Shown piece by piece: positions 6,154 through 54,600 of a DNA stretch of 64,000 nt. A program made the translations under genes and the position numbers. The notes beneath the pieces were generated by a model. The model worked only from the letters and a program-made list of their open reading frames with translations, made no database searches and had not been told where the DNA came from. The stretch is taken from contig JAKLKC010000012.1 in assembly GCA_023150875.1 (NCBI GenBank), positions 5,565 through 69,564 of the forward strand, read 5' to 3'. How positions within the stretch are numbered: the first letter of the stretch is position 1; each line of letters begins with the position of its first letter. Origin of the DNA: Myxococcota bacterium (GTDB lineage Bacteria; Myxococcota_A; UBA796; UBA9615; JAKLKC01).

Positions 6154-6244
<91 letters not shown>

Positions 6245-6502
6245 CCCCCACGGCGATCGGTCGGTGGCGAATCCAGGGGCCATCCACAGGTGCTCGCGGT
6301 CAGGAGGGATCGTCGGGTCCCGGGCGACCGGGTGCGGCGAACCCCGCCAGGTCCGGAAGGAAGCAACGGTAGTCGAATACCCGGTGTGTCCGGCCGACCC
6401 GGCGATCCCTCGTGACCGCGAGCGCCTCCCCCCGCGAGGCGTACTCCCCCTCCCCACGAACCCACCACCCGGCGCGCCCCTCCCGGCGCGTCCCCGGCGC
6501 CC

Positions 6503-39311: not shown

Positions 39312-41348
39312 TCAGGCCACCCCCAGCGCCTTGAACGCCGCCTGCCGCACGTCTCCGAAGAAGATCGGGTCCACCCGCTCCAGGACGTCGGGATGGACGT
39401 CCAGGATCTGGCGCTTGTTCTCGATGGGGACGAGGGCGCGGCGGGCGCCATTGTCCATGGCGACCTGGAGGGGCTCGGTCAGGGAGCGGACCGGCTTGAT
39501 GTTGCCCTGCACGCTCATGTCGCCCAGCACCAGCAGGCTCGCCTGGGGCGGGGACCGGCGCAGGATGGAGTAGGCGGCGACGAAGAAGGCGACGCCGATC
39601 TCCGCCTCCACCCGGTTGCCCAGCAGGTCGATGACCTCGACGTGCAGGTCCGACGTGTCGAGCTCCCGGGCCACGCCGAAGGGGGTCTTCTGGGCGTGGA
39701 GGTGGGCGAAGGCGCGCTGGACCGACTCCTTCATCGCCCCGCTCACGCCCCCCGCCAGCTTCAGCTTGCCGGTCCCCGACGACTGCGACACCTCCACCCG
39801 GTACAGGCCCACCGTGCCGTCCCCGCTGACCGAGGCCGTGTAGACCGTGCCCGGCGGCAGGGGGTCGGTGGAGATCAGGTCGCGCCCCCCCTGCTCGGGA
39901 ACGCCGACGAAGCGCTCCTCGCCCGTCTCGTGGTCGACATAGCTGAAGCTCGTCTGGTAGTACTCGAAGGAGCCCATCTTCTTGAGCTGCTCCTTCACCC
40001 GGCGCCGGCCCTCCAGGGCGAAGGCCAGGACCTCCTCCAGGTCCTCCTTGGAGACCTCGCCGTGGGGGTGCAGGACCTTCACCAGCCCCGACACCGTGCG
40101 CCGCACCGCCTTGCGGTCCCGGGCGTTCAGGTGGGAGCCGAGGTCGAAGTGGTGGTCCAGCGTCTCGGTGAAGTTGAGGCGGCGCAGCTCCCGCATCGCC
40201 TCGGCCAGGTAGTCCACCACGAAGCCGTAGTGGTCGGTGAAGTGTTCGTTGCGCATCTTCGGCACCTCCCACCCCGGCAGGTAGAAGTGCAGCCGGTCGA
40301 TGAACGCCATGTCGTCCCGGATCACGTCCGGCATCGGCGCGAACAGGTGTCCCGTCTGGACCATCACGTCCACCGGCTGCTGGGTGTTGCCGAACATCGC
40401 CACGCTGGCGTAACCCGACGCCTCCTCCTGGCCCCGCTGGTAGCGCCCCGACTCGCAGTAGGTCTTGAGGGTGGTCACCACCTCCTTCGGCATCTTCTGC
40501 AGGTCGGCCACCTCGTCGAAGCCCACCACGTCCCAGATCTGCACCATCCCCTTCTGGCGACCGCTCATGTGGCCGAAGAGGTTGGCCACCGTCGTCGGAC
40601 CCGTCAGCAGCGCCGCGTAGGGCGACAGCTCCTGCACCGCGTAGCTCTTGCCCGTGCCCCGCGGGCCCAGCTCCACCAGGTTGAAGTTCTGCTCGCACAG
40701 GGGCACCAGGCGCGCCAGGAAAAGCAGCTTCAGCCGCCGCGCCATCACCGTCGGCTCGTAGCCCATGCTGCGAAGGAGCAGGTCGATCCACTCGTCGGTC
40801 GTGAACCCGGCCCGCGTCCGCCGGTAGTCGTCCAGGTCGAAGGTGGCGAGCTGGATGGGGGTCAGCTTCTCGATCCAGAACGGGTACCTGCCCCGGTTCT
40901 CGTCGTCGGGCAGGAAGCGCAGGTCCACCTGAGCCCAGATCCCGCCGGTGAGCAGGCGGTCGTAGGAGCGGACGTAGTGCTCGGGCACGCGCACGTGCTG
41001 GTGGCCGAAGTTCGCCAGCTCCGCCCAGTAGTCCGAGTCTACCAGCCGCACCTTCACTTTGTCGATGAAGGTCCAGCGCCCCTTCTCCCGGACCCGGCTC
41101 TGGGCCTTCATGGACTCGTCGGGCCGGATGTAGTTCTCGGCCAGCGTGTCCTTCACCACCTGCAGCCCCATCTGGATCGCCATCTCGTCCGACGAGGCGC
41201 AGTACTTGCCGAGCAGGTACTCCAGGACGAAGACCGGGACGTTCGCCCCCACCTTCACCTTGCGGACGAGGTCCTTGCGGACCACGCGCCCCGCGAAGAG
41301 GCGGTTCACTTTGTCGTCGAGCGCGTCGCGCGTCGGGGGCACGTTCAC
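39312..41348 (-). CDS. brxL: BREX Lon-like protease BrxL
   Basis: N-terminus 'DDKVNRLFAGRVVRKDLVRKVKVGANVPVFVLEYLLGKYCASSDE' matches BrxL family; Walker A 'LGPRGTGKS'; C-terminal Lon-like domain; GTG start. Confidence 0.9.
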   Translation of the reverse strand: MNVPPTRDALDDKVNRLFAGRVVRKDLVRKVKVGANVPVFVLEYLLGKYCASSDEMAIQMGLQVVKDTLAENYIRPDESMKAQSRVREKGRWTFIDKVKVRLVDSDYWAELANFGHQHVRVPEHYVRSYDRLLTGGIWAQVDLRFLPDDENRGRYPFWIEKLTPIQLATFDLDDYRRTRAGFTTDEWIDLLLRSMGYEPTVMARRLKLLFLARLVPLCEQNFNLVELGPRGTGKSYAVQELSPYAALLTGPTTVANLFGHMSGRQKGMVQIWDVVGFDEVADLQKMPKEVVTTLKTYCESGRYQRGQEEASGYASVAMFGNTQQPVDVMVQTGHLFAPMPDVIRDDMAFIDRLHFYLPGWEVPKMRNEHFTDHYGFVVDYLAEAMRELRRLNFTETLDHHFDLGSHLNARDRKAVRRTVSGLVKVLHPHGEVSKEDLEEVLAFALEGRRRVKEQLKKMGSFEYYQTSFSYVDHETGEERFVGVPEQGGRDLISTDPLPPGTVYTASVSGDGTVGLYRVEVSQSSGTGKLKLAGGVSGAMKESVQRAFAHLHAQKTPFGVARELDTSDLHVEVIDLLGNRVEAEIGVAFFVAAYSILRRSPPQASLLVLGDMSVQGNIKPVRSLTEPLQVAMDNGARRALVPIENKRQILDVHPDVLERVDPIFFGDVRQAAFKALGVA

Positions 41349-41352
41349 GGGG

Positions 41353-43920
41353 CTACCTCAGGAGGCTCGTGGGCAGGGCGGGGGACGAGGCGAGGACCGC
41401 CCCCGAGGCCGGATCCAGGACCACCACCTTCACCGACGCCGCGTCCTCGCCGCCCAGCGTCAGGCCGACGTGGGCCTTCGCGCCCGGCCGGACCCGCAGC
41501 ACCCCCCGCTCCCGGTCGAGCTCGCCCCCGCTGACCATGCCCGCCGCGCCCACCTGCTGCTGCTCCGACAGGACCACCACCCGCAGCTCCACCGCCTCGG
41601 GCGCGAACAGCGGCGGCGCCTTCACCTCGACCTCCACCACGAAGACCCGGTTCGTGATGCGCTCGGGCAGCCCCGCCAGGACCACCTCGATCCCGCCCGT
41701 CCCCGGCGCCGGCTCCCCCGCCGGGATCCGGAAGGAGAGGACCGGGATCACCAGCTCCTGGAGGCTCGTGCTCCCGTGGTGGAAGCTCAGGTCCCCGCCG
41801 GCCTTGAACACCCCCAGGCCCGCCGGGAACACGAGCTCCAGGTCGCCGGCGTAACCGAGCTCCCCCGCCGACACCCGCACCGTCCCGGGGGGCGTCGCGC
41901 CGCCGCGGCCGATCCAGACCCGCCGGTGGAGCTCCACCGTATCGCCGCCGGGGGCGTCGGTCTTCATGTCGTCCCCCTTCCGCAGCCCGAAGAGGTGGCC
42001 GTGGTCGGCGGTCACCACGAAGTGCTCCACCCCCGCGGCCGAGAGGCGCCGGGCCGCCCGGGCGAGGTCGCCGATCACCCCCTCCATTGCCCGCCGGGCC
42101 AGGTGGTCGTCCCCTGTCTCGCCCAGGTAGTCGATCTCCGTCGACCGCACCACCACCAGGGACCGGCCCGCGACCCGCCGCCGCAGCTCGGACGCCTTGT
42201 CCTGGAGCACCCGGCTCAGGGTCAGGTCCACGACGTCGGGCACCCGCGCCTGCAGGTACCTCGTCCGCTCCGTCACCCCCGAGAGCGGCACCCCGTCCAC
42301 CAGGGCCGCCACCTTCCCCTTGTGGGCCACCACCGACAGGTTCGCGGACGCCCCCGGCAGCAGCGCCGCCATGCCCACGGGCGTGATGGTGGGCAGGGCC
42401 GCCACGGCGGGGAGCAGGTGGAGGTCCAGGGCCCCCGGGAGCTGCCGCGCGAGCTCCACCCCCATCTCGTACCGCAGCGCGTCGACCAGGAAGTACGCCA
42501 CCGGCCCTCCCCGGGTCGCCACCACGTCCGGGTGGACGCGCGCCTGGTGCAGGACCCCCGGCACGCTCCAACCCGCCCGGGCGAGGGCCGCGGTGAAGCC
42601 CCGGGCCATGTCGTGGAGCAGCCGCTCCGCGTCCCGGAGCACGACGCTGATCGCCTTCTCGAACAGGGACTCGTCGCCGACCCGCCCCCGCCACGTCTCC
42701 AGCGCCCGCTGGGCGGCGTCCACCCGGTGCCACCCGTCCTCGGCGGCGTAGCCCGCCACCCAGGTCTCCGGACCCGCCGAGGTCGGGGGCAGGCTGCCCT
42801 TCACCGCCCCGATCCGCAGGCCGAGCACGGCGACGCGCCGCGCCACCTCCCATTGCTCCTTGCGGGGGACGCGGGTGGCCTCGTCGGTCCACTCCACCCA
42901 GAAGCTCCGCTCGCGATCCTCCACCACCTCCAACGCCTCGCCGAACCGTCCCCGCTCCAGCAGCTCGGCGCACCAGGAGAGCAGGAGCCGCTCCTCGAAC
43001 TCGAAGGTGTCGATGCGCCCCAGGTCCTCCGCCCGCACCTTCGCCCTCGCCAGGTGGAACTCCTGCTCCACCTGCCGGGCCCGGGCCGCGTAGGCCGGGG
43101 CGTGGTCCCGCCGGAAGCGCCGGGCCAGCTCCCGCACCTGCTCGCGTTGGGCCTCGGTCTCTGGCGCCGGCTGCCCGGACATCGACGCGGGCGGAGGCGC
43201 CCGGAGGTCCATCCGGAACTCGCCCAGCAGGACGTAGCGGGCGAGGCGGCCGCGGGCCTGGGCCAGGGGAAGGCCGTCGTCGAGGTGCAGGCCCACCTTC
43301 GAGGCGACGAGGCGGTACAGCTCCGCGGCGGCGCCCTTCTCGGCGATCTCCGCGTCCCGGGCCTCGTCGGCGAGCCACCGGACCAGGATCTCGGAGTCGG
43401 CGGCGTCCCCGAAGATCACCTTCAGCCGCGACGCCTCGCCGCCGTCCCGCTGCGCCAGGAAGGCCACCACGTCGTCGTAGGTGGCGCGCCCTCCCTCCAG
43501 CACCTCGTCGATGACCCCGTCGGTGTAGCGCCGGCGCAGGCAGTCCCGGGCCTGTCGGGGGAAGTCCCAGTCCAGGCGGCGCCCGGCCTTCTGCAGCTCC
43601 ATGAGCACGTCCCGGGCGGGCTCGGGCAGCTCCGCGGGCACGTAGACCAGGAGGGGCGGATCGGGGGGGCCGTCCCCCGCGAAGAAGGGCTCGACGGCGT
43701 CCCGCACCGCGAACCACGAGCCCTCGAAGGTGACGAGGCGGGCCCGACCGTCGCCCAGGTCCACCTCGAAGACGTCGGGGTGCTCGTCGCTCCAGGCACA
43801 CGCGCCGGCCAGGTCGTCGAAGAAGGGCCGGAAGGCGCCGGCGGGGTCCACGACGACGGCGACACCCCGACGCAGCGCGGCGCGCACCTGCTCGGCGAGG
43901 TGGGTGTGGAAGGGGTTCAT
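41353..43920 (-). CDS. pglZ: BREX alkaline-phosphatase-superfamily protein PglZ
   Basis: 'YFLVDALRYEMGVEL', 'VVTADHGHL' PglZ motifs; ATG at 43918-43920 overlaps stop of upstream gene (ATGA). Confidence 0.9.
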   Translation of the reverse strand: MNPFHTHLAEQVRAALRRGVAVVVDPAGAFRPFFDDLAGACAWSDEHPDVFEVDLGDGRARLVTFEGSWFAVRDAVEPFFAGDGPPDPPLLVYVPAELPEPARDVLMELQKAGRRLDWDFPRQARDCLRRRYTDGVIDEVLEGGRATYDDVVAFLAQRDGGEASRLKVIFGDAADSEILVRWLADEARDAEIAEKGAAAELYRLVASKVGLHLDDGLPLAQARGRLARYVLLGEFRMDLRAPPPASMSGQPAPETEAQREQVRELARRFRRDHAPAYAARARQVEQEFHLARAKVRAEDLGRIDTFEFEERLLLSWCAELLERGRFGEALEVVEDRERSFWVEWTDEATRVPRKEQWEVARRVAVLGLRIGAVKGSLPPTSAGPETWVAGYAAEDGWHRVDAAQRALETWRGRVGDESLFEKAISVVLRDAERLLHDMARGFTAALARAGWSVPGVLHQARVHPDVVATRGGPVAYFLVDALRYEMGVELARQLPGALDLHLLPAVAALPTITPVGMAALLPGASANLSVVAHKGKVAALVDGVPLSGVTERTRYLQARVPDVVDLTLSRVLQDKASELRRRVAGRSLVVVRSTEIDYLGETGDDHLARRAMEGVIGDLARAARRLSAAGVEHFVVTADHGHLFGLRKGDDMKTDAPGGDTVELHRRVWIGRGGATPPGTVRVSAGELGYAGDLELVFPAGLGVFKAGGDLSFHHGSTSLQELVIPVLSFRIPAGEPAPGTGGIEVVLAGLPERITNRVFVVEVEVKAPPLFAPEAVELRVVVLSEQQQVGAAGMVSGGELDRERGVLRVRPGAKAHVGLTLGGEDAASVKVVVLDPASGAVLASSPALPTSLLR

Positions 43921-44915
43921 CCGGGGTCCTCGGTCGCGGGCTGGCTCTCGTCGTCCAGGATCACCAGGCGGGTGACTTGCAAGCGCCCCGTCCGGCGTCC
44001 GCCACCCGCGCGTCGGACTCCGTGGACCTCGACCCGTCGGTCGAGGGCCTCGATGGCCGTGTCGAGCAGCTCCGGCTCGAAGCCGCACGGGACCTCCAGG
44101 GCCGCATCGCCGACGTTCCGCAGCGTGAACGACAGGTTGTCGAGGTCGATCTCCCGCAGGTCCCCCGCGTAGGTCAGGACGACCTCCGAGGCGGCGGCGT
44201 CGATGGCCGCGTCGATCCGCCGATGGGCCGCGCGTGTCAGCGAGACGGGGCGCCCGCCGGCCGAAGGTCCCGACAGCTCGACCGCGTCGACCCCTCCCCG
44301 GGGGCGCGGGGCGAGGCGCTTGACTTCGGTCAGCAGCACCCGGCGGAGCCCCGCGTCGGGGACGCGCCGCGCGAGGGCGCCCTCGTCCTCGTCCGACCCC
44401 GCCCAGGCGGCCACCGTCGCGTACTTGTCCAGCGCTTCCCTCGCCGCGCCCGCGACGCTCCCCGCGTCGGCGTCCTCGCGCTCGGGAAGGCGCAGGCCGA
44501 CGCGGACGCTGCCCGGCCGCAGGCTCAGCACCTCCAGGTCGCAGGCCCGCTGGATGGCGAGGGTCGGACGGGTCGAGAGGGACCCGGTGGCGATCCACTC
44601 GGTCCCCGACTGGATCCCCTTGCGGAGCGTGTTGAGGAAGGTGGTCAGGACGCTCGTCGGCGTGGCGGGCCAGTCGATCCCGGCGCCGCGGACTCCGAGC
44701 CAGAGGGGGGCCTCCGCCTCCTCGGCCACCGCCCGCCCGGTGTACTCGCGCAGGTCGGCCTCCATCCGCCGGATCTGGTCGAGGGGCCCCTCCGACATGA
44801 CCGCGAACCAGGCGTCGCTCAGGCGGGGACGGTCCCGCTCCAGAGCGGCCAGCGACTCGTACATCCGAGCGAGCTGCTGGAGCGTGACGCGGAGCTCGGT
44901 GTCGTTGCGGATCAT
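43917..44915 (-). CDS. uncharacterised protein (332 aa) translationally coupled between an NTase-like gene and pglZ
   Basis: ATGA overlaps at both ends (44912-44915 and 43917-43920); no known motifs recognised. Confidence 0.55.
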   Translation of the reverse strand: MIRNDTELRVTLQQLARMYESLAALERDRPRLSDAWFAVMSEGPLDQIRRMEADLREYTGRAVAEEAEAPLWLGVRGAGIDWPATPTSVLTTFLNTLRKGIQSGTEWIATGSLSTRPTLAIQRACDLEVLSLRPGSVRVGLRLPEREDADAGSVAGAAREALDKYATVAAWAGSDEDEGALARRVPDAGLRRVLLTEVKRLAPRPRGGVDAVELSGPSAGGRPVSLTRAAHRRIDAAIDAAASEVVLTYAGDLREIDLDNLSFTLRNVGDAALEVPCGFEPELLDTAIEALDRRVEVHGVRRAGGGRRTGRLQVTRLVILDDESQPATEDPG

Positions 44916-45355
44916 GGCGTCACCTTCAGGATGCCCTTCGCCCGACCGTCCCGGGTGAGCTGGAAGTATTCCATGTGGCGTGCCAGCGCGGGCGTGCCTT
45001 CCGCGCCGACGAGCACGTCGAACCCGTACCTCGTCCCCACGCGCCGGCGGGAGAGGAGGTTGTACTCGAAAGGGCGCAGCTCGGACTGGAAGTCGTGGTC
45101 CGCACGGAGGGCGAGCACGAGGTCGATGTCCCCGGGATCGGGCTCGGCGGTCACGAAGCTCCCGTCGACGGCGAGCCAGGCGATGGCGGGCGTGGTCCTC
45201 GCCTCGGCCAGGAAGGCGCGCAACCTCTCCACGAGCACATGGCGACCGGGATGCCCCAGGCAGAAGCGCCCGAAGCGCTCGCGCACCTCCGCGAAGGTGC
45301 ACTCGTGCACCCCCGGAGGCAGCAGCCCGTCGGGGGTCAGCTCCGGGATCGGCAT
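44912..45355 (-). CDS. nucleotidyltransferase-like small protein (DUF-type, 'TPDGLLPPGVH' family)
   Basis: 'LAVDGSFVTAEPDPGDIDLVL' fits GSx9-13DxD NTase motif; N-terminal 'PELTPDGLLPPGVHECTFAEV' signature. Confidence 0.55.
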   Translation of the reverse strand: MPIPELTPDGLLPPGVHECTFAEVRERFGRFCLGHPGRHVLVERLRAFLAEARTTPAIAWLAVDGSFVTAEPDPGDIDLVLALRADHDFQSELRPFEYNLLSRRRVGTRYGFDVLVGAEGTPALARHMEYFQLTRDGRAKGILKVTP

Positions 45356-45482
45356 GGCGCCTCGGGGAGAAGCGGGGAGAGCTGGCGGGCGGAACGGCTC
45401 ATGCACGGTCCCCGACCGGCCTGCGGTCCGCCACATCGGGCGCACCGATCCGGGGGATGCTGCCGGAGGGCGGGAGCGCGGC

Positions 45483-45542
45483 GACGCCCCGGCGCCGCGC
45501 GGCGCGCACCAGCTCGGCGAGGTGGGTGTGGAACGGGCTCAT
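45483..45542 (-). pseudogene. remnant of a second pglZ 5' end (20 codons, MSPFHTHLAELVRAARRRG...)
   Basis: 45483-45542 ~ 43861-43920 at nt level incl. ATGA junction; similarity stops abruptly. Confidence 0.5.
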
Positions 45543-46228
45543 CCGGGGCCCTCGGCGCGGAGGCGGCCCTGGCGGCGGAGCTGCCTCGCCACCAGCGGGC
45601 ACTCGCAGGCCAGCCAGGAAAGGGGCCACGGTTCCGGCGGATCGTCCGGGTCGGTCCGCAGGCCGTGGTACCGGTCGTGGTATTCCGCACGTGCGTCACA
45701 GAAGACGGGGTCGTTGAGGCCCAGCCTCGAGATCGTCGCCTCGACCTTCGCCCGGACCTCGGCTTCCAGGTCGTCCGCCGGGGCGATCTCGAAGCTCGCC
45801 ACGTCCAGCGTGAACCAGTGGTCCTGGACCTCGAAAGGGTCCAGCACGTCCTCGTGGTCGCCCTTGTTGGTGTTCACCTGGGCGGCCGCGAGGCGGAAGT
45901 TCGACCACTCGTAGGCGAGGCGCCGGTCCCTCGACTTGGGGACGAAGTGGTCGACCGTGGCGGCTCCCGTCGCCTCGTGGATGCGCATGCCCAGGTAGCC
46001 GCACACGTTCCCGTAGCGCCGCCGGAGCTCGGGCAGCGCGCGGGTCCAGAACGTGGGGAGGTTCTCCACGGGGATGGCGTCGATGGTCGTCGCCACGACG
46101 CTCCGCTTGCGGCCTCGCCGTGGGGGACCCGAGGTATCACCGACGAGTTCACGGAGGGCTCGCTCGCCCGGGATCCTCACGAGCTCGTCGAAGTCGGCCG
46201 GTTCCTCGGCGGGATCGACGTGGATCAC
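45539..46228 (-). CDS. HNH endonuclease (PtuB-like)
   Basis: 'CGYLG...VDHFVPKS...WSNFRLAAAQVNTNK' HNH motif; GTGA overlap with upstream ATPase. Confidence 0.7.
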   Translation of the reverse strand: MIHVDPAEEPADFDELVRIPGERALRELVGDTSGPPRRGRKRSVVATTIDAIPVENLPTFWTRALPELRRRYGNVCGYLGMRIHEATGAATVDHFVPKSRDRRLAYEWSNFRLAAAQVNTNKGDHEDVLDPFEVQDHWFTLDVASFEIAPADDLEAEVRAKVEATISRLGLNDPVFCDARAEYHDRYHGLRTDPDDPPEPWPLSWLACECPLVARQLRRQGRLRAEGPG

Positions 46229-47511
46229 GCGGGCTCCGGCGGAAGGTGCTGCGACATGAAGTGCCGCCAGCGGACGAAGAAGGGGTCCATCGCCGGGAGG
46301 AGGCGGCCGAGATCGGCATCGACGTTCCGGATCCGGTCCGGGTCGGGTGAGGGCTCACGAATGAGCCGGCGGGCGGCTTCGATGGCCCTCTCCGCGTCTA
46401 CCGACGTCGCCTCGCCGAGATCGAATACGTCGGAGCGGAGCCACCGGCTCGCGTCGCCCCTCAGGTGCCACTCGTCCTTTGCGATCTGGACCATCCCGTC
46501 CACCAGGTCGAGCTTCCACAGGGCGTCCCGGGAGGGGTCGAACACGGGCTCCATCGAGGCGAGGATCAGGGGGGAATGGGTCGCCACCAGGAACTGGACG
46601 TCGGGAGCGGCGTCGTCGTGCCACCCGCGCACGGCCTCGTGGATGCCACGAAGCACCGTCCGCTGCCACCTGGGGTGGAGGTGGGTCTCGGGCTCGTCGA
46701 TGAGCACGATCAACTGGCGCGACATGGGCCTGCCCATGCTGGCGCTCTCCCGCTCGTGGGCGGACAGGGACCAGGCCAGCAGGTAGGCCAGCTTGCACAT
46801 CCGCTGCACCCCCGCCGGGGCGTATGTGATGGGGACGTCCTGGCCGTAGGGCATGGATACGGTGGGGATCGCCCGGTCGTCGTCGGGGTACGGGTACCGT
46901 GGCTCTCCCGGCCGCAAGGGTTCTCCTTCGGGGCCCAGGGCGGCCAGCAGCCTGCGGAGCAGCTCGAACCTCGGGTCCTCGCTGCGCTGCCAGAGGATCC
47001 AGTCCAGGATCAGCCCGGAGCAGATCGTCTGCTCCCGCTCCTGGCCGCCCTCGGTGATGGTCCGACGCAGGCCGTGGAAGACCTGGCGTGGGCTGAACTG
47101 GTATGCCGGTGGCGCCTCGATGTTACCGCCGTCGGGGCGCTGATAGAGGCGGTAGTTCCGAGCCGGGTCCCAGGCCGAGAACGAGCCGTCCACGCGAGCG
47201 TACAGGACGAGGCCCGGGTTCGGGGGGCGGCCCGGGGCCCGCCGCCAGGTCTGGGCTCCCGGGAGCCACTTGGAGACCGCTTGGTGGGGTCGCCGTTCCC
47301 CGTCGAAGGCGAAGGCGATCTCGGCGTCCTGCGCGTTCGGGACCGCGGGCGACTCGTGCCAGGTGCGGGTCAGGGCCCACCACCCCACATCCAGCAGGAA
47401 CGACTTCCCGAGCCCGTTGTCCCCGGTGATCAGGTTGAAGCGGCGCGCGATGGGGTCCATCACCAGCGACGCGCCGGGCCCGACCCGGGTGAGCTTCAGC
47501 TTCCTCAGCAT
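46225..47511 (-). CDS. AAA/ABC-type ATPase (PtuA/OLD-like)
   Basis: Walker A 'TGDNGLGKS', Walker B 'LIVLIDEPETHLHP', 'ATHSP'; ATG overlaps pglX stop (TGATG at 47509-47513). Confidence 0.7.
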   Translation of the reverse strand: MLRKLKLTRVGPGASLVMDPIARRFNLITGDNGLGKSFLLDVGWWALTRTWHESPAVPNAQDAEIAFAFDGERRPHQAVSKWLPGAQTWRRAPGRPPNPGLVLYARVDGSFSAWDPARNYRLYQRPDGGNIEAPPAYQFSPRQVFHGLRRTITEGGQEREQTICSGLILDWILWQRSEDPRFELLRRLLAALGPEGEPLRPGEPRYPYPDDDRAIPTVSMPYGQDVPITYAPAGVQRMCKLAYLLAWSLSAHERESASMGRPMSRQLIVLIDEPETHLHPRWQRTVLRGIHEAVRGWHDDAAPDVQFLVATHSPLILASMEPVFDPSRDALWKLDLVDGMVQIAKDEWHLRGDASRWLRSDVFDLGEATSVDAERAIEAARRLIREPSPDPDRIRNVDADLGRLLPAMDPFFVRWRHFMSQHLPPEPA

Positions 47512-50500
47512 CAGGAATCCTCGGCGGGCGGCGCCTTGGGCAGCGCCAGGTCGAGCTGGTGACTGCGCTCCTGACCGCGCCGGGGGCGCTCGGGAGCGGC
47601 TCGCGCCGGACGCCCCGGGGACCGGCGGGCCGGCGCGGGCGGCGGCGTGTGGGTGAGCTTCGCCAGGGCGTCCTTCACGGCGGGGGAGGTGCGCTCCCTC
47701 ACGAGGGACTCTACGACGTCGCCCTCGACCTCGCGGGGAGACCACCGACCGTCCTCGTCCGGGCACCAGAAGACGTCCTCCAGGCCGTGGGCGATGGCGA
47801 GGCTGCGGTCCAGGGCGCACTTCGGGACCACGCGCTCGGGCCACAGGCGCATGGCCAGGTGGGACCAGTCGTACTCGGCCTCGCAAAGGCGGGCGAAGGC
47901 GCCCTCGCACTCCTTCTGCCAGCTCCGGGTGTGGGCGAAGAGGCGGTGCAGCGGCGCGGCGTTGAGGATCACGCCGTCGTCGAGGTCCGGGTCCCACAGG
48001 GGGGCCACCCGGGCGACCTCGTCCCGGAAGGCGCGAAGCTCGTCCACGAAGGCCTCCTGCTCGGCCAGGGCGCGCCGCTGGGAGGGCGTGGGCGTGCCGC
48101 CGACCTCGGCGCGGAGGTGGGCGAGGCGCCCCTCCTCGAAGCGCAGCTTGGGCGCGACGTGGTCGTGGAGGACGCGGTGCAGGGTGTCCCGGGCGAAGCG
48201 GTGGATGTAGACCCACACGCTGTAGCTGCCCGAGGGGGTGCCCAGGCGCCAGTAGATGGGGGCCTTGCGGCGGCTCCGCGAGTAGCGCTGGACGTGCTCG
48301 GCGAAGAAGGCCCGCCTCAGCCAGGGGCGCAGGTCATCGGCGCCGGGGTCGAGGAGGGCGGTCGCCTCCCTGAGGCGCTCGTCGCCGTCGTCGCCGAAGA
48401 CCACGTCGAAGACCCGCCGGATGCACCCGAGCAGGTCGCGCTCGTGGCCGGGGTCGTCGACGAGGATCCCGTCGGTGGGGAAGGCGATGGGGTAGCCGGC
48501 GGGCGGTGCGTCCGCGGGCAGGCCGTCCTCGCCGGTCAGCATGCCCGGGGAGCAGGGGGGGAGGGGATCGAAGGGGTCGGGCTCGGGCGGTAGCGGGCGC
48601 TCGCCGGTGGCGAGGCGGATGTCGAAGCGGCCGTATGCCGTGCCCACGAGCGCGCTGACTACGGGCATCACCACCTCAGCAGCACCGAACTCGGGGGACC
48701 ACGCCGTGCTGAGTTTGCGCACATCGTCGGACGCGGTCACCCCGAACAGTTGTGCGATTTCGTCATCAATGACAGCTAACGCTTCATTGAATTTGTGGAG
48801 CTCCACCTTCCTCCGGCAATGCTCATCCGCAACAAGGCCGCGACCGACTCCAGTTCCGTAGATATGCGCAGGCATTCCACCAAACGTAGGATCCAATTCA
48901 TCCAAGCCGCGAAGAGCCCTAGCCGCGCTAATCGCTATCATACTGGCATGTTCAACGCGCTTCTTGACCTCCTCTTGTGGCCACCGCCAATTCAGCGACT
49001 TCACCAGCCCGGTCGGGAATGCGGAAGCTGTGGACCGGCTCATTACGGCCTTTCGCGTAACGGCGGCGTTCAACCATCCGACGAGATATGCATTGCTAAC
49101 GGACTCTGTGATGGAAATAACGGCGGGGCCGACAATCGACATGATGACACCCCGGGGTAGGTTCCGAACTGCAAATCCGAGCGTCGACCGGTACGAGTAC
49201 GTTGCCCCGCCCCTGTACCACCACGAAGATCCCGTTCGGCACTGCGCCGTCTGTCCATTGATGGCCATGTTCACAGCATCTAGCTCCGCTCCGTCCTGCC
49301 TTCGGTTCAGGACCAGATGGACGTCGCCGTAGAATGGCTGGAATTCGCCCCCTTTGGCATACCGTGCCCAGCACTTGGGTGATAGATCTCTGGCATTGAC
49401 TTCAGTCCAGATGCGGAGGAACCGCTCGTCGTCATGAGTCAGCGGCCCTTGACGAGCTGTTCCTGCTGCGGGTTCGAACGACTCGCTTTGTTCCCCGATC
49501 TGCGTGGATGCCAGTGCTCCACCTGTCAATACTTGATGTGCTACGCTCATGACTATTTGCCGCCGCGCCCGCCACGCTGGATCACGAGGACGACCGGCAG
49601 AAGCAGCGAGGAGGGCTTCCGCGCTTTGCCCCGGTTCGCCCGAGACCACGAATACCGAGTCTTCTGCACTTCCGGGGGCGCCGGCCAGTACAAAGTAACA
49701 GGCCCGGACTACAGCATCGTCCATGAGCCCCATTCCAGCATCGACCAGTATTGCGAAGCGATCGTTGAACTTGTGCCTCCTCCAGCGACCAAGTCTCTTG
49801 GTTGTCAGCACGCTATTGGGAGCCACAACACCGATCGGTCCATTCGTCAGTTCGGCTGCACGGTCGACAAGAGCCGCAGATGCCTCGACGTACGAGAGGG
49901 AGCGATTTCGCCTTAGAAGCAGGAATGGAGAATCGGGGAGCCTCCCAAACGGCGGATTCATCAACACCACGTCGTACCGCCCCCGGCACACGTCGATGAA
50001 CGCGAACCCCCGCGCCGCGTCCTCGGCGAACAGCCTCCTCCGGTACGCGTTCCCGGTCGTCGCCCCCTCGGCGTACTCCCTCAGCGCCTCGTAGACCTTG
50101 CCCTCGACCTCCTCCCACCGCTCCCGGTCCAGCCGCGCGTACATCGGCCCCCGGCTGAACCGCTTCTCCAGCTCCTGGCGCACCGTGTCCTCGATGCGCA
50201 GCAGGGTCCCGGCCTCGCCCGCGAGCCTCATCTCTTCGAACACCCGCCGCACCAGGGCGGCGACGTCGGGGTCCAGGCCCCAGCAGAACTCGTCCAGCAG
50301 GTCCGCCTCCCCCGGCATGGGCTCGGCGATCACCACGTTCGTCCGGGTCACGAGCGGTCGCTTCGCGCGGTCCAGGCCCAGGTCCTTCCACGCCCTCTGG
50401 GCCCGCATCCACAGCGCCAGTGCCGCGATCTGGGCGGCCCGGGGGTCGATGTCCACCCCGTACAGGTTGTGCCTCAGGACCAGCCCCGGCAGCTCCCGCC

Positions 50501-51617
50501 GCAGCGCCTCCCGCGTCGCGTAGTCCTCGCGCAGGCTCCTCCCGGTGGCCTCCGACGCCGGGGAGCCCTCGTCCTCCCACGCCTCCTCGTAGATCACCAG
50601 GAGCAGGTCGAAGGCGTAGAGCAGGAAGTGACCCGACCCGCAGGCCGGGTCCAGGATCTTCAGGTCCCGCGGGTCCTTCTTCGCCCGGAAGGGCAGGTGG
50701 ACCGGCCGCTGCTCGGGCGGGACCGTCTCGTCGGGCTCGGGCGCGGCCTCGCCCTCCGCCAGGAACACGGTGCCCGGCCGGCGCACGAGGTAGCGGCAGA
50801 GCTCCGCGAGCCGCGTCCCGCCCCGGCGCATCTCCAGCCAGGTCTGGCCGAGGGTGTTGTCGGTCAGGAACTCCACGACGTAGCGCGGGGTGAAGAACTG
50901 GTTGCGGACCGCGAGCTCCCGGCTGTCGCGGGGGGCCTGGGACTCGGCCCGCATCCGCCGCCGCTCGTCCTCGCCGTTGAAGTACTGGTAGACCCAGCCG
51001 ATGGTCTCGTCCTCGCCCCACACCTGGGCCAGCTCGGGGTCGTTCAGGACCCCCAGCAGATCCTCCAGCGCGTTGCGCCGGGGCCAGAGCAGGCTCGCGG
51101 GGTCGCGGCGGTCGAAGAGGACCCGCACCTCGCGGCCCACCTCGTCGAAGAGGCACTCCAGGTAGAGGCGGTAGGCCTCGTGGGGCCGCACCTTCAGCCC
51201 CTCGGCCAGGCCCTGGAACTCGCGGAAGCCCGACGATGCCAGGGCCCCCCTCACGCTCTCCCTCACGATCCCCCGCGCCTCCAGCATCTTCAGGGCGACG
51301 AAGCGGTTGAGGGTGGTGAAGGCGCACTCCCGGGTGAGCGCCGCCACCGCCTCGGGCGCGGTCCGGCCCTGGGCGCGGTGGTGGGCGACGGCGTCCACCA
51401 GCCTCCGCCGCACCCGGCGGGCCGCGGGGTCCTCATCGAGATGGCGCCCCGCCTCCTCCGCCACCGTGCCGTCCGGGCGGATGTCGAAGGTGCCCTCGAG
51501 CTGGGCGGCGATCTCCCCCTCGAGCAGGCGGCGGGCGGCCTGGGTGGCGCGCTGGATGCGGTTGCGGGTGTCCTTGTCCATGCCTCGGGGCCGTGGGCGC
51601 GGGGCGGCGGGGATCAT
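47511..51617 (-). CDS. pglX: BREX N6-adenine methyltransferase PglX
   Basis: 1368 aa; 'VVLMNPPFG' motif IV at ~49948-49962, 'DPACGSGHFL' motif I; position between brxC and pglZ. Confidence 0.85.
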   Translation of the reverse strand: MIPAAPRPRPRGMDKDTRNRIQRATQAARRLLEGEIAAQLEGTFDIRPDGTVAEEAGRHLDEDPAARRVRRRLVDAVAHHRAQGRTAPEAVAALTRECAFTTLNRFVALKMLEARGIVRESVRGALASSGFREFQGLAEGLKVRPHEAYRLYLECLFDEVGREVRVLFDRRDPASLLWPRRNALEDLLGVLNDPELAQVWGEDETIGWVYQYFNGEDERRRMRAESQAPRDSRELAVRNQFFTPRYVVEFLTDNTLGQTWLEMRRGGTRLAELCRYLVRRPGTVFLAEGEAAPEPDETVPPEQRPVHLPFRAKKDPRDLKILDPACGSGHFLLYAFDLLLVIYEEAWEDEGSPASEATGRSLREDYATREALRRELPGLVLRHNLYGVDIDPRAAQIAALALWMRAQRAWKDLGLDRAKRPLVTRTNVVIAEPMPGEADLLDEFCWGLDPDVAALVRRVFEEMRLAGEAGTLLRIEDTVRQELEKRFSRGPMYARLDRERWEEVEGKVYEALREYAEGATTGNAYRRRLFAEDAARGFAFIDVCRGRYDVVLMNPPFGRLPDSPFLLLRRNRSLSYVEASAALVDRAAELTNGPIGVVAPNSVLTTKRLGRWRRHKFNDRFAILVDAGMGLMDDAVVRACYFVLAGAPGSAEDSVFVVSGEPGQSAEALLAASAGRPRDPAWRARRQIVMSVAHQVLTGGALASTQIGEQSESFEPAAGTARQGPLTHDDERFLRIWTEVNARDLSPKCWARYAKGGEFQPFYGDVHLVLNRRQDGAELDAVNMAINGQTAQCRTGSSWWYRGGATYSYRSTLGFAVRNLPRGVIMSIVGPAVISITESVSNAYLVGWLNAAVTRKAVMSRSTASAFPTGLVKSLNWRWPQEEVKKRVEHASMIAISAARALRGLDELDPTFGGMPAHIYGTGVGRGLVADEHCRRKVELHKFNEALAVIDDEIAQLFGVTASDDVRKLSTAWSPEFGAAEVVMPVVSALVGTAYGRFDIRLATGERPLPPEPDPFDPLPPCSPGMLTGEDGLPADAPPAGYPIAFPTDGILVDDPGHERDLLGCIRRVFDVVFGDDGDERLREATALLDPGADDLRPWLRRAFFAEHVQRYSRSRRKAPIYWRLGTPSGSYSVWVYIHRFARDTLHRVLHDHVAPKLRFEEGRLAHLRAEVGGTPTPSQRRALAEQEAFVDELRAFRDEVARVAPLWDPDLDDGVILNAAPLHRLFAHTRSWQKECEGAFARLCEAEYDWSHLAMRLWPERVVPKCALDRSLAIAHGLEDVFWCPDEDGRWSPREVEGDVVESLVRERTSPAVKDALAKLTHTPPPAPARRSPGRPARAAPERPRRGQERSHQLDLALPKAPPAEDS

Positions 51618-51663
51618 ACCAGCCGTCCCCGACGTTGGCGCGGGCGGGGGCGCGCCGCCGACG

Positions 51664-54600
51664 CTACTGCACCCAAACCTTCTTGCCCTCCCCGATCAGC
51701 CGCTCGCACTCGTCCCGCAGGGCCTGGATCGCCGCGTCGAGCTGCTCGGGGGTCTCGACGCCCCCCGGGAAGAACGACGACACCCGCACCCGCACCACGC
51801 GGTTGCCGTCGATCATGCGGAGCATCTCCTCCGTCGCCGCCTGGAGCCGCGCCGGGCACGCCTCGGTCTCGGCGCGCACCTGGGGGATGGGGGTGGGGGG
51901 CGGCAGGGCGGTGGTGGCGGGGCCCGCGAGGGGGGCCTCCACCCGGGCCTGCTGGGCAGCGTCGAGCTGGGACCACTCCGGCGCCCCGCGCAGGCGCTCC
52001 ACGGCGGCGGCGTAGGCGGCGCGCCGGGCCTCGACGGCGGCGTCGAAGCGGGCCCGCCAGGCGGCGCCGACCTCCCGGGCGTGCTCGTCGATCCGCGGCA
52101 GCTCCCGGAAGAAGGTCTCGCGCCGCAGCAGGTCGTCCAGCTCCTCGGCCCGCGCCGCCAGGCCTTCGGGGAGGTCCGGCTCCTCCTTCAGGAACGGCCA
52201 CTGGCGGCGCACCGCGTCCCGGGCACGGGCGAGGTCCAGGAGGCGCGGCTCGGTCAGGGCGTCGTCCAGCTCGGCGGCGCGCTTGATGCCCGCCTTGATC
52301 TCCCCGCAGCTCGCGTTGAACGTGGTGATGGCGTTGTCGTCGCCGCCCGTGCGGATCACGCGGACCTGCTCCAGGGCGCGGGCCAGCACCTCGGCCCCCG
52401 GCAGGTCGTCGCGGACCAGGCGGTTGTGGACGTCCTGAAGGGCCTGCTCGTGGCGATGGACCTCGTCCTTGATGGCGCGGGCGACGACTCCCGGCTCCAG
52501 CTCGGCGATCTCCTTGCCGAACACGTCGCGGAAGTGCCCGTCCGCCTTGACCAGCTCCCCGTAGTCGACGCTGACCTTCGGCCGGAACGTCGCCTGCCGG
52601 AAGAGGTTGTTGTTGGTGAACGTCGTCCGCGCGTCGAGGGAGAGGGCGTTGTCGATCACCTGCCCCCGGGAGACCGCCTCCACCTTCCCGGCGCGCAGAA
52701 GGCTCGCCACCAGCAGGCGCACCACGTCGAAGTCCCAGCCGAAGGGCTCCTTGCCCAGCTCGTCGGCCAGCGCCCGGCCGCTCACCAGCTCGCCATAGGC
52801 CGCCTTGTGGGCGATCCGGTTCATCACCTCGGAGAGGGGACCGCCCTCGGTGCGGAACGCGGGCTTGCCCCTCGTCTCCTGGACGAGCTGGAGCTGGGAG
52901 AAGACCGGCGGGAGGCCCCGGAGGTTCTCGGTGGTCAGCAGGGCCTCCAGGTCCTTCGCGGACACCTTCGCGGCGCCGTCCGAGAAGCGGTCGAAGACCT
53001 CGGGGAGCACCCTCGCGAGCACGCCCGCGCAGGCGCGGCCCACGTCGGCGGCGCCGGCCTCGGGGTTGCGCTCGTTGCCGCGGAAGTAGACGGTGCCGGA
53101 GAGCAGGGCTTCCCGCAGGCGCCGCCTCAAGTCGTCCTGGTGGCGCTGGCGGCGGCGCTTCTCCTCGGCCACGAGGGCGGTCTCGTCCCGGGTGGTGGCG
53201 TTGCGCTCGCGTCGGGCCAGGATCTCCTGGCTGCGGAAGACCTCCTCGGTCACGCGGTCCACGGCGTCGTCCAGGCGGGCGATCCAGAAGACGGCGGTGC
53301 GCTCCTCGCGGCTGCGCTGCCGCCACTCCTCGCGCAGGCGGCCCCACTCGGCCTCGTCCGGCGCCAGGGAGACGTGGACCGGAACGTCGCCGGGGGTGAC
53401 GAGGCGGTTGTTCAGGAAGAGCCCGGCCCGGAAGGGCTTGACGTCACGCAGGAGGTGGGACGGCTGGGGCGTCCACAGCCCGTCCACCACCTCGGCGTGG
53501 ATCCGGGCGGCGTCGGCGGGCCGGAGGGAGAGCTTGCCCCGCTGGCCCTCCCAGTCGTCCTCGGCGGGCGTGGGGATCCGGTAGCCGTCCTCGCCCAGGC
53601 GGATGCGGCCCGCGGCGACGAGGGCGTCCAGGGCCGCCTTGACCTCGGGGAGCTGGGAGTCGGCGGTGACGCTCGGGTGGAGGGTGGCGGCGACGTTCTC
53701 GGCGGTGCGGGGGATCCGCTGCTCGTACTGGAGCAGGCAAACCGCCTTGGCGACGGCCTGGGCGCGGGGGTGCGGCACCTCGCGGCCGATGTCGTCGATC
53801 TTCCGGCGCACGTCGCTCGAGACGTTGCCCGAGACGAGGTCGTACACGCGATCGAGGGTGACGAGGGTCCCCTCGGGCTTCGAGGCGAGGTCCACCTCGG
53901 GGTGGATGAGGAGCTGCTGGGCGAGCTTGATGATGGTGCGGGCGGCGCCGCCGACGTGTTTGCTGGCGCCGCCCTGGGTGCGCAGGCCCGAGACGACGTT
54001 GATCACGAGGTCGATCTGGTAGGGGAGGAGGGGGTAGAGGTCGATGAAGCCCTGGTCGGTCAACTCGGGCAGGGCGACGTTGGGGGCGTGGACGCGGGTG
54101 TGGTCCACGAGGCGGCCCCGGTGCTCCCGGTGGAGGGCGCGCAGGCGGGCCTGGGCGTCGGCGTGCTTCTCGAGGACGCGGCGGCTGGTGACCTCGGAGA
54201 TGTCCGAGGGCTCCAGGTGCACCTGGAGGGGGAAGCGGTCCTTCACCTTCGGCAGCTCGATGCGCGTCTGGTCGAGGCCGCCGACCAGCTCCGAGAGGGC
54301 CTCCTGGGAGGTGACCATGACCCAGATCCGCCCGCCGCCCCGCTGGCCCAGGCGCTCGACCACGGCGCGGAGGTCCTCGAGCTTACCGCCGTCCTTGGCG
54401 ACGAACTGGCCGACCTCGTCGATGACGAAGAGCAGGTTGCGCTTTTCGGGCCGGCGCCTCGACAGCAGCTCCAGGCAGCGGTCCGCCAGCAGGGCCGGGG
54501 TGACGTCGCCCCGGCCCTTCGCCCCCTTCACCCAGGAGTCGGGGGCGTTGTAGGTGCGGGGCTCCAGGGCGTGCATGACCGCCGAGGCCCGGCCGATGGC

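What the first reader, a model, noticed from the sequence alone, without database searches (positions are those of the whole stretch)
45539..47511. Septu-like ATPase + HNH nuclease pair embedded inside the BREX operon, coupled to pglX
A 428-aa ABC/AAA ATPase (Walker A TGDNGLGKS; Walker B LIVLIDEPETHLHP; ATHSP) starts 1 nt inside the pglX stop. It is followed, with a GTGA overlap, by a 229-aa HNH endonuclease (CGYLG..VDHFVPKS..WSNF..N..K). This two-gene architecture matches Septu (PtuA/PtuB), here co-transcribed inside BREX. Nested defense systems in the pglX-pglZ gap are a recognised but under-catalogued phenomenon.
Basis: partly seen in the sequence, partly recalled or inferred. Interest (0 to 1): 0.75.

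Follow-up and report, generated by a model that had tools for sequence, protein, structure and literature searches.

The report
Septu nuclease pair nested inside BREX
A two-gene Septu anti-phage module (an ATPase and an HNH nuclease) sits inside a complete BREX phage-defence operon, next to a second nested two-gene cassette; the reading is right, but this arrangement is already described and turns out to be common for this Septu lineage.

Summary
On the minus strand, a 428-aa ABC ATPase (46225-47511) starts 1 nt inside the pglX stop codon. A 229-aa HNH protein (45539-46228) follows with a GTGA overlap.

PADLOC assigns both proteins full-length to Septu (PtuA E=1.9e-141, PtuB E=3.7e-60). Predicted structures match only solved PtuA and PtuB chains at the top. 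The catalytic motifs are conserved.

The host operon is a complete type I BREX: brxA-brxB-brxC-pglX-[ptuA-ptuB]-[DUF6932 + 332-aa gene]-pglZ-brxL. It lies in a Myxococcota defence island.

Three things were new relative to the finding:
- A second nested cassette lies between ptuB and pglZ. It is an NTase-like protein matching PADLOC candidate PDC-M63A, plus a conserved partner of unknown function.
- That cassette is bounded by a ~85-106-nt duplication of the pglZ 5' end, so the old ptuB-pglZ junction survives as a 47-codon scar.
- In 80 related loci from species-representative genomes, about half of the judgeable ones have this Septu lineage next to PglX or PglZ. At least about 15 gains or losses are needed on the tree.

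Embedding of defence systems in BREX, including ABC-ATPase+HNH dyads, is already published (Payne 2024; NAR 2026). This is a new member of a known kind, of modest interest.

The parts
46225..47511 (-). ptuA: Septu ABC ATPase, 428 aa. Walker A G30-S37 (K36), signature-like A233-G234-x-x-R237, Walker B D272/E273, H-loop H312, and three C-terminal helices.
   Evidence: PDLC00307, E=1.9e-141, full length; AAA_21/AAA_15; invariant motifs; AF2 pLDDT 87; top PDB folds are Septu and retron PtuA.
45539..46228 (-). ptuB: Septu HNH nuclease, 229 aa, with a GTG start in a GTGA overlap with ptuA. Catalytic D93-H94, N110, N119 and K122 are present. The CxxC...CxxC zinc finger of solved PtuBs is absent.
   Evidence: PDLC00348, E=3.7e-60; alignment; pLDDT 94.8; only PtuB chains match; solved PtuBs have CAYC where this clade has CaYL.
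47511..51617 (-). pglX: BREX methyltransferase, 1368 aa from the first ATG, or 1356 aa from the ATG at 51581. Its stop overlaps the ptuA start by 1 nt.
   Evidence: PDLC02527, bits 1192, profile 3-1327 of 1332; Eco57I, MmeI_Mtase.
45399..45542 (-). 47-codon remnant ORF. Its first ~23 codons copy the pglZ N-terminus (MSPFHTHLAELVRAARRRGVA). Its ATG overlaps the ptuB stop (ATGA). This is the scar of the former ptuB-pglZ junction.
   Evidence: repeat D1: 45450-45555 vs 43828-43933, 106 nt at 80%, with a core of ~85 nt at ~90%; called as a 47-aa gene by an independent caller.
44912..45355 (-). DUF6932 / PDC-M63A-like small protein, 147 aa. The GS...DxD-type motif 'DGSFVTAEPDPGDIDLV' suggests a minimal nucleotidyltransferase. 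First gene of the second nested cassette.
   Evidence: and (PDLC04744, E=7.7e-18; PF22014, E=4.7e-25). The NTase reading of the motif is my inference.
43917..44915 (-). Gene X: 332-aa conserved protein of unknown function. It has ATGA overlaps with DUF6932 upstream and pglZ downstream. Second gene of the second nested cassette.
   Evidence: GC3 frame and start; no PADLOC or Pfam hit; ~50 homologues; always directly after DUF6932; alignment; no solved relative.
41353..43920 (-). pglZ: BREX alkaline-phosphatase-like protein, 855 aa. Its first ~75 nt plus ~10 nt upstream form the other copy of the direct repeat (43828-43933).
   Evidence: PDLC02559, E=3.3e-238, profile 1-851 of 860.
39312..41348 (-). 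brxL: BREX Lon-like protease/ATPase, 678 aa.
   Evidence: PDLC02506, E=5.2e-287; BrxL_N, BrxL_ATPase, Lon_C.
51664..55218 (-). brxC (pglY): BREX ATPase, 1184 aa.
   Evidence: PDLC02476, bits 1576, profile 4-1180 of 1180.
55230..55817 (-). brxB, about 195 aa. The start is inferred as the TTG at 55817, overlapping the brxA stop.
   Evidence: PDLC02459, E=8e-51; PF08747.
55814..56602 (-). brxA, about 262 aa. Its ATG at 56602 overlaps the stop of an upstream 265-aa gene by 1 nt.
   Evidence: PDLC02454, E=2.6e-82; PF08849.

Best explanation
The pair is a type I Septu system (PtuA ABC ATPase + PtuB HNH nuclease). It belongs to a widespread lineage whose PtuB has lost the zinc-finger cysteines. It is nested, in the same orientation and with overlapping stop and start codons, between pglX and pglZ of an intact type I BREX operon in a Myxococcota defence island.

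Shown here:
- gene structure and family assignment;
- intact catalytic motifs;
- PtuA-like and PtuB-like folds;
- completeness of the BREX operon;
- recurrence of the same nesting in many phyla.

Inferred: the pair is expressed from the BREX transcript and acts as an autonomous second layer of defence. By analogy with studied Septu systems, a PtuA oligomer would hold PtuB through its C-terminal helices. On infection the nuclease would be licensed and would nick DNA and/or cleave a host tRNA (tRNA-Tyr in the E. coli systems). That stops phages which escape or inhibit BREX.

The locus then gained a second cassette (DUF6932 + gene X) by recombination at the 5' end of pglZ. This left a duplicated pglZ start next to ptuB.
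For: Family:
- PADLOC PtuA 1.9e-141 and PtuB 3.7e-60, both full length.
- Foldseek top hits are 8eea (E. coli Septu PtuAB), 9e90 and 9nnb, for both models.
- A profile search of PDB sequences with the PtuB alignment finds only PtuB entries.

Motifs:
- Walker A, Walker B and H-loop are invariant in 18 PtuA sequences.
- H94, N110, N119 and K122 are invariant in 23 PtuB sequences.

Operon:
- All six BREX genes give near full-length matches.
- Overlaps are -1, -4, -4 and -4 nt, and no gap exceeds 183 nt.
- Terminator- and promoter-like sites are no more frequent than in shuffled sequence.

Autonomy and mobility of the pair:
- 31 of 62 judgeable loci are next to PglX or PglZ and 31 are not, with at least 15 state changes on a neighbour-joining tree.
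- BREX genes are the only recurrent neighbours.
- A stand-alone pair sits on a mobilizable Azotobacter plasmid.

Mechanism by analogy:
- Septu PtuAB forms a hexameric assembly with ATP-sensitive DNA nicking, and PtuB's C-terminal domain binds the PtuA C-terminal extension (PMC12819146).
- Septu EcB88 needs Walker A/B and HNH residues and cleaves tRNA-Tyr on infection (PMC13096335).

Scar: a 106-nt repeat (core ~85 nt at ~90%) lies exactly at the ptuB stop and at the true pglZ start.
Against: - No experiment exists on this lineage.
- It shares only ~15% identity with solved PtuA and PtuB, and TM-scores are about 0.45-0.57.
- It scores far below the NCBIfam PtuA/PtuB equivalog cut-offs: 53.8 vs 500 bits and 31.9 vs 150 bits.
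- Oligomer state, trigger and substrate could therefore differ from studied Septu systems.
- The loss of the Zn-binding cysteines could affect nuclease stability or specificity.
- Very tight and frequent linkage to pglZ, with gaps of 0-100 nt in most BREX-linked loci, is also compatible with functional dependence on BREX rather than autonomy.
- Co-transcription is not demonstrated.
- The promoter scan uses a sigma-70 consensus that may not suit Myxococcota.
Confidence: 0.85

Rival explanations
1. The pair is not an autonomous system. It is a BREX-dedicated accessory, either the nuclease arm that BREX lacks or a guard that fires when PglX or BREX is inhibited. On this view it works only together with BREX proteins.
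For: - Half of the judgeable loci of this lineage are BREX-linked.
- ptuB is usually 0-100 nt from pglZ.
- One gammaproteobacterial/Desulfobacterota subclade is almost uniformly embedded.
- Here the pair is translationally coupled to pglX.
- PMC12839542 proposes ABC+nuclease dyads as BREX backup effectors.
- Payne et al. suggest that embedded ABC systems could be triggered by anti-BREX proteins such as Ocr.
Against: - 31 loci with adequate flanks lack any BREX gene.
- No other neighbour family recurs.
- The pair occurs alone on a plasmid.
- It also sits beside a DISARM-type DrmMI methylase gene (L007).
- At least 15 gains or losses are needed on the tree.
- Studied Septu systems protect when cloned alone (PMC13096335).
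- No pglZ-linked sequence signature separates embedded from free members in my data; this was not tested formally.
Confidence: 0.12
2. The pair is a PARIS-, OLD- or Gabija-type ABC-ATPase system, or a retron type I-A (Septu type II) effector module, rather than type I Septu.
For: - There are weaker PADLOC hits to AriA (1.3e-22) and to retron ATPase_I-A and HNH_I-A.
- NCBIfam's best, sub-threshold hits are the retron Ec78 PtuA and PtuB.
- PMC12839542 classes such ATPases as OLD-family ABC.
Against: - The PtuA and PtuB models score about 120 and 50 orders of magnitude better than these alternatives.
- The partner is an HNH protein, not a TOPRIM protein.
- No reverse transcriptase ORF lies in the operon.
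- No Rfam retron RNA is found in the window.
Confidence: 0.02
3. The HNH protein is a McrA-like, modification-dependent (type IV) restriction nuclease with an ATPase helper. It would complement BREX as BrxU does, rather than act as a Septu-type abortive module.
For: - Several homologues are labelled 'McrA' by JGI.
- There is a weak PADLOC mREase_IV hit (E=0.0016).
- GmrSD-like genes share the same gap in other loci (L048).
Against: - The label is a generic HNH annotation.
- Fold and profile searches return only PtuB chains.
- No modified-base reader domain (SRA, ParB-like DUF262) was detected.
Confidence: 0.03

Closest known systems
Septu type I (PtuA/PtuB; Doron 2018; E. coli Septu structures 8EE4/8EE7/8EEA; Septu EcB88)
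   Same: - The two-gene order is ABC ATPase then HNH nuclease, with overlapping genes.
- Both proteins give full-length matches to PADLOC Septu models.
- The closest solved folds are the same.
- Walker A, Walker B, H-loop and HNH residues are conserved.
- Both proteins have C-terminal helical regions, like the PtuA C-terminal extension and PtuB C-terminal domain interface.
   Different: - Identity to solved members is only ~15%.
- PtuB lacks the CxxC...CxxC zinc-binding cysteines across the whole lineage.
- PtuA is shorter (428 vs 456-550 aa), with a beta-rich middle region in the model.
- It is nested in BREX rather than free-standing.
- Trigger, oligomer state and substrate are untested.
OLD-ABC ATPase + HNH dyads and other nuclease modules embedded in BREX loci (NAR 2026, PMC12839542); 'embedded' defence systems in Hma/BREX/DISARM/type I RM (Payne et al. 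2024, bioRxiv 10.1101/2024.01.29.577857)
   Same: [quoted passage not shown]
- The proposed role is a backup layer.
- The second cassette matches one of Payne's embedded-cassette candidates (PDC-M63A).
   Different: - Those papers are surveys. This specific Myxococcota locus is not described there as far as I could search, nor is the tandem stacking with a pglZ 5' duplication or the ~50% BREX linkage of this Septu lineage.
- Payne et al. quantify Septu embedding for Hma (0.7%), not for BREX.
BREX with embedded BrxU (pEFER) or PARIS (Salmonella BREX)
   Same: A second, mechanistically different defence is nested within a type I BREX operon and expressed with it.
   Different: The nested system here is Septu (ABC + HNH), not a GmrSD type IV enzyme or AriA/AriB. 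No functional data exist for it.
Retron type I-A (Ec78/Eco7, Ec83), also called Septu type II
   Same: The effector pair is PtuA + PtuB, and these are among the closest solved structures.
   Different: There is no reverse transcriptase or msr/msd RNA here. The NCBIfam retron PtuA and PtuB models score far below cut-off.

Membership tests
Septu type I (PtuAB) | Adjacent, co-oriented genes: ptuA (ABC/'AAA_15/21' ATPase) followed by ptuB (HNH) | tested here: met
   ptuA is 47511-46225 and ptuB is 46228-45539, with a 4-nt overlap. The same order is seen in 76 of 80 related loci.
Septu type I (PtuAB) | Both proteins match Septu profile HMMs over their full length | tested here: met
   PDLC00307 PtuA scores 1.9e-141 (1-421 of 428 aa). 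PDLC00348 PtuB scores 3.7e-60 (1-224 of 229 aa).
Septu type I (PtuAB) | Intact ABC ATPase catalytic motifs in PtuA (Walker A Lys, Walker B Asp-Glu, H-loop) | tested here: met
   G30-S37 including K36, D272, E273 and H312 are invariant in 18 sequences.
Septu type I (PtuAB) | Intact HNH (beta-beta-alpha-Me) catalytic residues in PtuB | tested here: met
   H94, N110, N119 and K122 are invariant and D93 nearly so, in 23 sequences.
Septu type I (PtuAB) | Folds of PtuA and PtuB resemble solved Septu proteins | tested here: met
   For PtuA the top hits are 8eea_D (E=4e-14, TM ~0.5) and other PtuA chains. For PtuB the ten significant hits are all PtuB (9nnb_J 1.4e-5; 8eea_G TM 0.57).
Septu type I (PtuAB) | PtuA oligomer binds PtuB; regulated nuclease activity; anti-phage protection | not testable with these tools
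   This needs biochemistry and plaque assays. Only C-terminal helices consistent with the known interface are seen in the models.
TIGR02646 / retron-type PtuB (NCBIfam NF041761) | Score above the curated cut-off, and the CxxC...CxxC zinc-binding cysteines seen in solved PtuBs | tested here: not met
   Scores are 31.9 bits vs a 150 cut-off and 26.7 vs 52.15. The window has CGYL and the clade consensus is CAYL, where solved PtuBs have CAYC. No second Cys pair is present.
Retron type I-A (Septu type II) | Reverse transcriptase gene and msr/msd ncRNA next to ptuAB | tested here: not met
   No RT lies among the neighbouring genes. There is no retron RNA at the Rfam gathering threshold. NF041760 PtuA scores 53.8 vs 500 bits.
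PARIS / OLD / Gabija | ABC ATPase paired or fused with a TOPRIM nuclease (plus a helicase for Gabija) | tested here: not met
   The partner is an HNH protein. AriA scores only 1.3e-22 against 1.9e-141 for PtuA. No TOPRIM domain is found in Pfam.
BREX type I (host operon) | brxA, brxB, brxC, pglX, pglZ and brxL on one strand | tested here: met
   All six genes give near full-length PADLOC matches and Pfam support.
PADLOC candidate PDC-M63 (second cassette) | Two-gene cassette with PDC-M63A and PDC-M63B | tested here: inconclusive
   The A protein matches PDLC04744 at 7.7e-18. The 332-aa partner matches no PADLOC model at E<=0.01, yet it is the constant neighbour of DUF6932 in 4 other loci.

The most novel reading that the evidence does not exclude
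This zinc-finger-less Septu lineage is adapted to BREX. It normally occupies the slot immediately upstream of pglZ. It may act as a guard that is licensed when BREX (PglX or PglZ) is inhibited by a phage, instead of sensing phage independently. A secondary reading is that the conserved 5' end of pglZ serves as a recombination handle through which nested cassettes are stacked, as the duplicated pglZ start in this window suggests.
Probability: 0.15. Interest if true: 0.6.

Novelty: new member of a known kind. Interest (0 to 1): 0.27.

Why it matters
The locus adds a clean, intact example of layered immunity: BREX plus Septu plus a candidate system in one tightly packed gene array. It also gives three usable facts:

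- One Septu lineage is BREX-linked in about half of the sampled species-representative genomes, yet it moves in and out of BREX repeatedly.
- The duplicated pglZ 5' end is a rare physical trace of how a nested cassette was added.
- The DUF6932 + 332-aa pair recurs inside three different methylation-based defence loci. This supports treating it as a defence candidate worth testing.

None of this changes current understanding of Septu or BREX.

Tried and rejected
- **OLD, Gabija, PARIS and retron readings.** Rejected on HMM scores, partner domain, and the absence of a reverse transcriptase or retron RNA.
- **Recurrent pglZ 5' duplications.** I searched every BREX-linked related locus for repeats of the pglZ start within the upstream 9 kb. 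Nothing comparable turned up; the only hit was one 32-nt match in L036. The scar is therefore a single event here, not a general signature.
- **A pglX 3' remnant next to the second cassette.** None was found among the direct repeats of 41300-51700.
- **A 'before insertion' allele.** I looked among other contigs carrying the identical PtuA. All six are 100% identical to the window.
- **A conserved non-BREX neighbour for the free-standing members.** None recurs in more than 8 of 80 loci.
- **Function of gene X.** There is no PADLOC, Pfam or PDB sequence match, even with a 15-sequence profile. DUF6932 also has no solved relative by sequence.
- **The apparent PglX length variant (1356 vs 1368 aa).** It is only a different start-codon call on identical DNA.
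- **The Aeromonas hit in the plasmid collection.** That record has no annotation in the region and was not pursued.
Full report
**Observation**

The window is 73% G+C. The genes in question lie on the minus strand.

- The ORF list and the sequence itself show pglX ending with a TGA at 47513-47511.
- An ATG at 47511-47509 opens a 428-codon frame that ends at 46225.
- A GTG at 46228 opens a 229-codon frame that ends at 45539. This gives a GTGA overlap.
- Third-position G+C of about 0.9 marks these as the coding frames.
- Six contigs from other sequencing runs are 100% identical over this region. An independent gene caller on them gives the same 1368/428/229-aa products.
- Homologues of the second protein are 228-232 aa and align from residue 1. 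The GTG start is therefore correct, and the deposited 185-aa annotation is too short.

**What it is**

PADLOC's profile library assigns the ATPase to PtuA. Model PDLC00307 scores E=1.9e-141 and covers residues 1-421 of 428. The best non-Septu family, AriA, scores 1.3e-22. The same library assigns the second protein to PtuB (PDLC00348, E=3.7e-60, residues 1-224).

Pfam sees only the generic AAA_21 and AAA_15 domains and a sub-threshold HNH. NCBIfam's retron-type PtuA and PtuB equivalogs are hit far below their cut-offs. So this is Septu, but not the retron-associated branch.

An 18-sequence PtuA alignment keeps these positions invariant:
- Walker A (G30-S37, including K36);
- an AG..R signature-like motif (A233, G234, R237);
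- Walker B D272-E273;
- the H-loop H312.

A 23-sequence PtuB alignment keeps C76, H94, N110, N119, K122 and a DPF motif invariant.

AlphaFold2 models are confident: PtuA pLDDT 87 and PtuB pLDDT 94.8. Foldseek against the PDB returns the following:
- For PtuA, the first hits are E. coli Septu PtuAB (8eea, 8sux, 8ee4) and retron Ec83/Ec78 PtuA, at E=4e-14 and TM about 0.5.
- For PtuB, the only significant hits are ten PtuB chains, at E=1.4e-5 to 5.6e-4 and TM 0.44-0.57.

A profile search of PDB sequences with the PtuB alignment likewise finds only PtuB entries.

One difference is lineage-wide. Where solved PtuBs have CAYC, this clade has CAYL (CGYL in the window). The second cysteine pair is also missing. 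The zinc finger is therefore gone while the catalytic His and Asn residues stay.

**Surroundings**

The neighbouring minus-strand genes give near full-length PADLOC matches to BrxA, BrxB, BrxC, PglX, PglZ and BrxL, with Pfam support. This is a complete type I BREX.

From at least 57399 down to 39312 the genes are packed on one strand. Overlaps are 1-4 nt or gaps are short. Promoter- and terminator-like sites are no more frequent than in shuffled sequence. This is consistent with one transcript but does not prove it.

The island also holds a large serine recombinase (58007-60082, plus strand) and a prokaryotic viperin (38219-39052, plus strand). The identical PtuA protein is recorded from a Myxococcota MAG.

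ptuB is not followed by pglZ. Two more genes lie between them.

- The first is a 147-aa DUF6932 protein (44912-45355). It matches PF22014 at 4.7e-25 and PADLOC candidate PDC-M63A at 7.7e-18.
- The second is a 332-aa protein (43917-44915) with no family match.
- The two are joined by ATGA overlaps to each other and to pglZ.

Directly at the ptuB stop sits a 47-codon ORF. Its first ~23 codons repeat the PglZ N-terminus. At DNA level, 45450-45555 and 43828-43933 form the longest direct repeat in the region: 106 nt at 80%, with a core of ~85 nt at ~90%.

The repeat starts about 10 nt before the ATG. As a result, PtuB and gene X end with the same '...PG*' and the same ATGA junction.

The simplest reading is that ptuB once abutted pglZ, as it does in most related loci (see below). 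The DUF6932+X cassette then entered by recombination near codon 24 of pglZ, bringing or regenerating an intact pglZ 5' end. No comparable duplication exists in the other BREX-linked loci, so this is one event and not a general mechanism.

Gene X has about 50 homologues. In the four contexts I fetched it always follows DUF6932 with a 4-nt overlap:
- once in a plasmid-like region with ParA, ParB and a relaxase;
- twice between an N6-methyltransferase and helicase/restriction genes in Planctomycetota;
- once in a BREX-like locus.

That pattern fits the 'embedded cassette' origin of PDC-M63 in Payne et al..

**How common is the nesting?**

A scan of one genome per species with the PtuA alignment found at least 582 relatives and returned the best 80 loci. 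PtuB follows PtuA in 76 of them.

I built iterated HMMs from the window's BREX proteins and searched the loci. They detect PglX upstream and/or PglZ downstream, on the same strand, in about 30 loci from these groups:
- Myxococcota;
- Acidobacteriota;
- Gamma- and Betaproteobacteria;
- Desulfobacterota;
- Planctomycetota;
- Chlorobiota;
- Chloroflexota;
- Spirochaetota.

The ptuB-to-pglZ gap is mostly 0-100 nt. The pglX-to-ptuA gap ranges from -7 nt to 6.7 kb, because other cassettes sit there. Examples are a GmrSD/HEC-06-like gene in L048 and an HEC-01A-like ABC ATPase in L025.

Clustering of all neighbours shows that BREX genes are the only recurrent neighbours.

On a neighbour-joining tree of 81 PtuA sequences, 31 loci are BREX-linked, 31 are not despite adequate flanks, and 19 cannot be judged. 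At least 15 changes of state are needed. The pair also occurs alone on a mobilizable Azotobacter plasmid and beside a DISARM-type DrmMI methylase gene in Sorangium.

So the cassette is mobile and probably autonomous, but it has a strong preference for the pglZ-proximal slot of BREX.

Two limits apply. The sample is the 80 best matches, not the whole family. The HMMs were seeded from one BREX, so the linkage is a lower bound.

**Mechanism**

Nothing here was tested experimentally. The mechanism rests on published Septu work.
- PtuA and PtuB form a large assembly. The PtuB C-terminal domain is clamped by PtuA C-terminal extensions.
- DNA nicking by stand-alone Septu is ATP-sensitive (PMC12819146).

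Both models here end in helical bundles compatible with that interface.

I therefore take the pair to be an infection-triggered ATPase-licensed nuclease that backs up BREX. The guard idea, in which it is triggered by BREX inhibition, is possible but unsupported.

**Comparison with what is known, and novelty**

[quoted passage not shown] 2024. That paper also describes Septu embedded in Hma, and reports that 96.7% of embedded genes share the host's orientation.

A 2026 survey of BREX diversity explicitly reports HNH nucleases linked to OLD-family ABC ATPases as dyads inside BREX loci. It interprets them as backup effectors (PMC12839542).

PADLOC already holds models that fit both proteins end to end, so standard pipelines would label this locus Septu within BREX. 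Full-text searches found no paper on this particular locus or on a pglZ duplication scar.

**Verdict**

- This is a new member of a known kind.
- Modest extra value comes from the stacked second cassette, the junction scar, the zinc-finger loss and the linkage statistics.

Noticed in passing
window 43917-45355 (-), with L087-L090: A second nested cassette lies between ptuB and pglZ. It is DUF6932/PDC-M63A (147 aa, NTase-like GS...DxD motif) plus a conserved 332-aa protein with no Pfam, PADLOC or PDB match. The pair recurs with the same 4-nt overlap in a plasmid-like region, inside a SNF2-MTase...ResIII/RE system, and in a BREX-like locus.
   Followed up: partly
window 45399-45555 and 43828-43933: A direct repeat of ~85-106 nt duplicates the pglZ start (and ~10 nt upstream) right at the ptuB stop. 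This creates a 47-codon remnant ORF. It was not found in 30 other BREX-linked loci.
   Followed up: yes
window 38219-39052 (+): A prokaryotic viperin (pVip, radical SAM; PADLOC E~1e-83) is encoded next to brxL on the opposite strand. The BREX operon therefore sits in a wider defence island.
   Followed up: no
window 58007-60082 (+): A large serine recombinase (Resolvase + Recombinase + Zn_ribbon_recom domains) lies just upstream of the BREX operon. The island may be an integrative element. Its ends were not mapped.
   Followed up: no
window 49000-49999 (inside pglX): G+C drops to 0.595 in a 1-kb stretch of pglX, against 0.69-0.75 around it. This may be an exchanged target-recognition region of the methyltransferase.
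   Followed up: no
window 56602-57399 (-): A 265-aa gene with high GC3 has a stop that overlaps the brxA ATG by 1 nt. It gives only a weak PADLOC BrxE hit (E~1e-6) and no Pfam hit. It may be an extra upstream BREX-operon gene.
   Followed up: no
window 35296-38100 (-): A 934-aa ORF with coding-like GC3 (0.88) lies beside the viperin gene and has no PADLOC or Pfam match.
   Followed up: no
window 45539-46228 (-): The public annotation of this ptuB (L6R50_08550) is 185 aa. Homologues show that the real product is 229 aa from the GTG that overlaps ptuA.
   Followed up: yes
L007 2220-9944, L048 8159-9961, L025 298-1404, L002 8375-9751: In related loci the gene just upstream of ptuA varies: a giant DISARM-type DrmMI methylase fusion (Sorangium), a GmrSD/HEC-06-like nuclease, an HEC-01A-like ABC ATPase, or a SIR2-like protein. 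Several nested systems therefore stack in the same gap.
   Followed up: partly
L029 and L073: In two loci the Septu pair sits in a different BREX gene order: pglX-[ptuAB]-brxC-pglZ in one, and pglX-brxC-pglZ-[ptuAB] in the other. The association is therefore not limited to type I gene order.
   Followed up: no
window 5987-6407 (+): Two tRNA-Ser genes (cga, gga) and the small SRP RNA lie together about 40 kb from the finding. They are unrelated to it.
   Followed up: no
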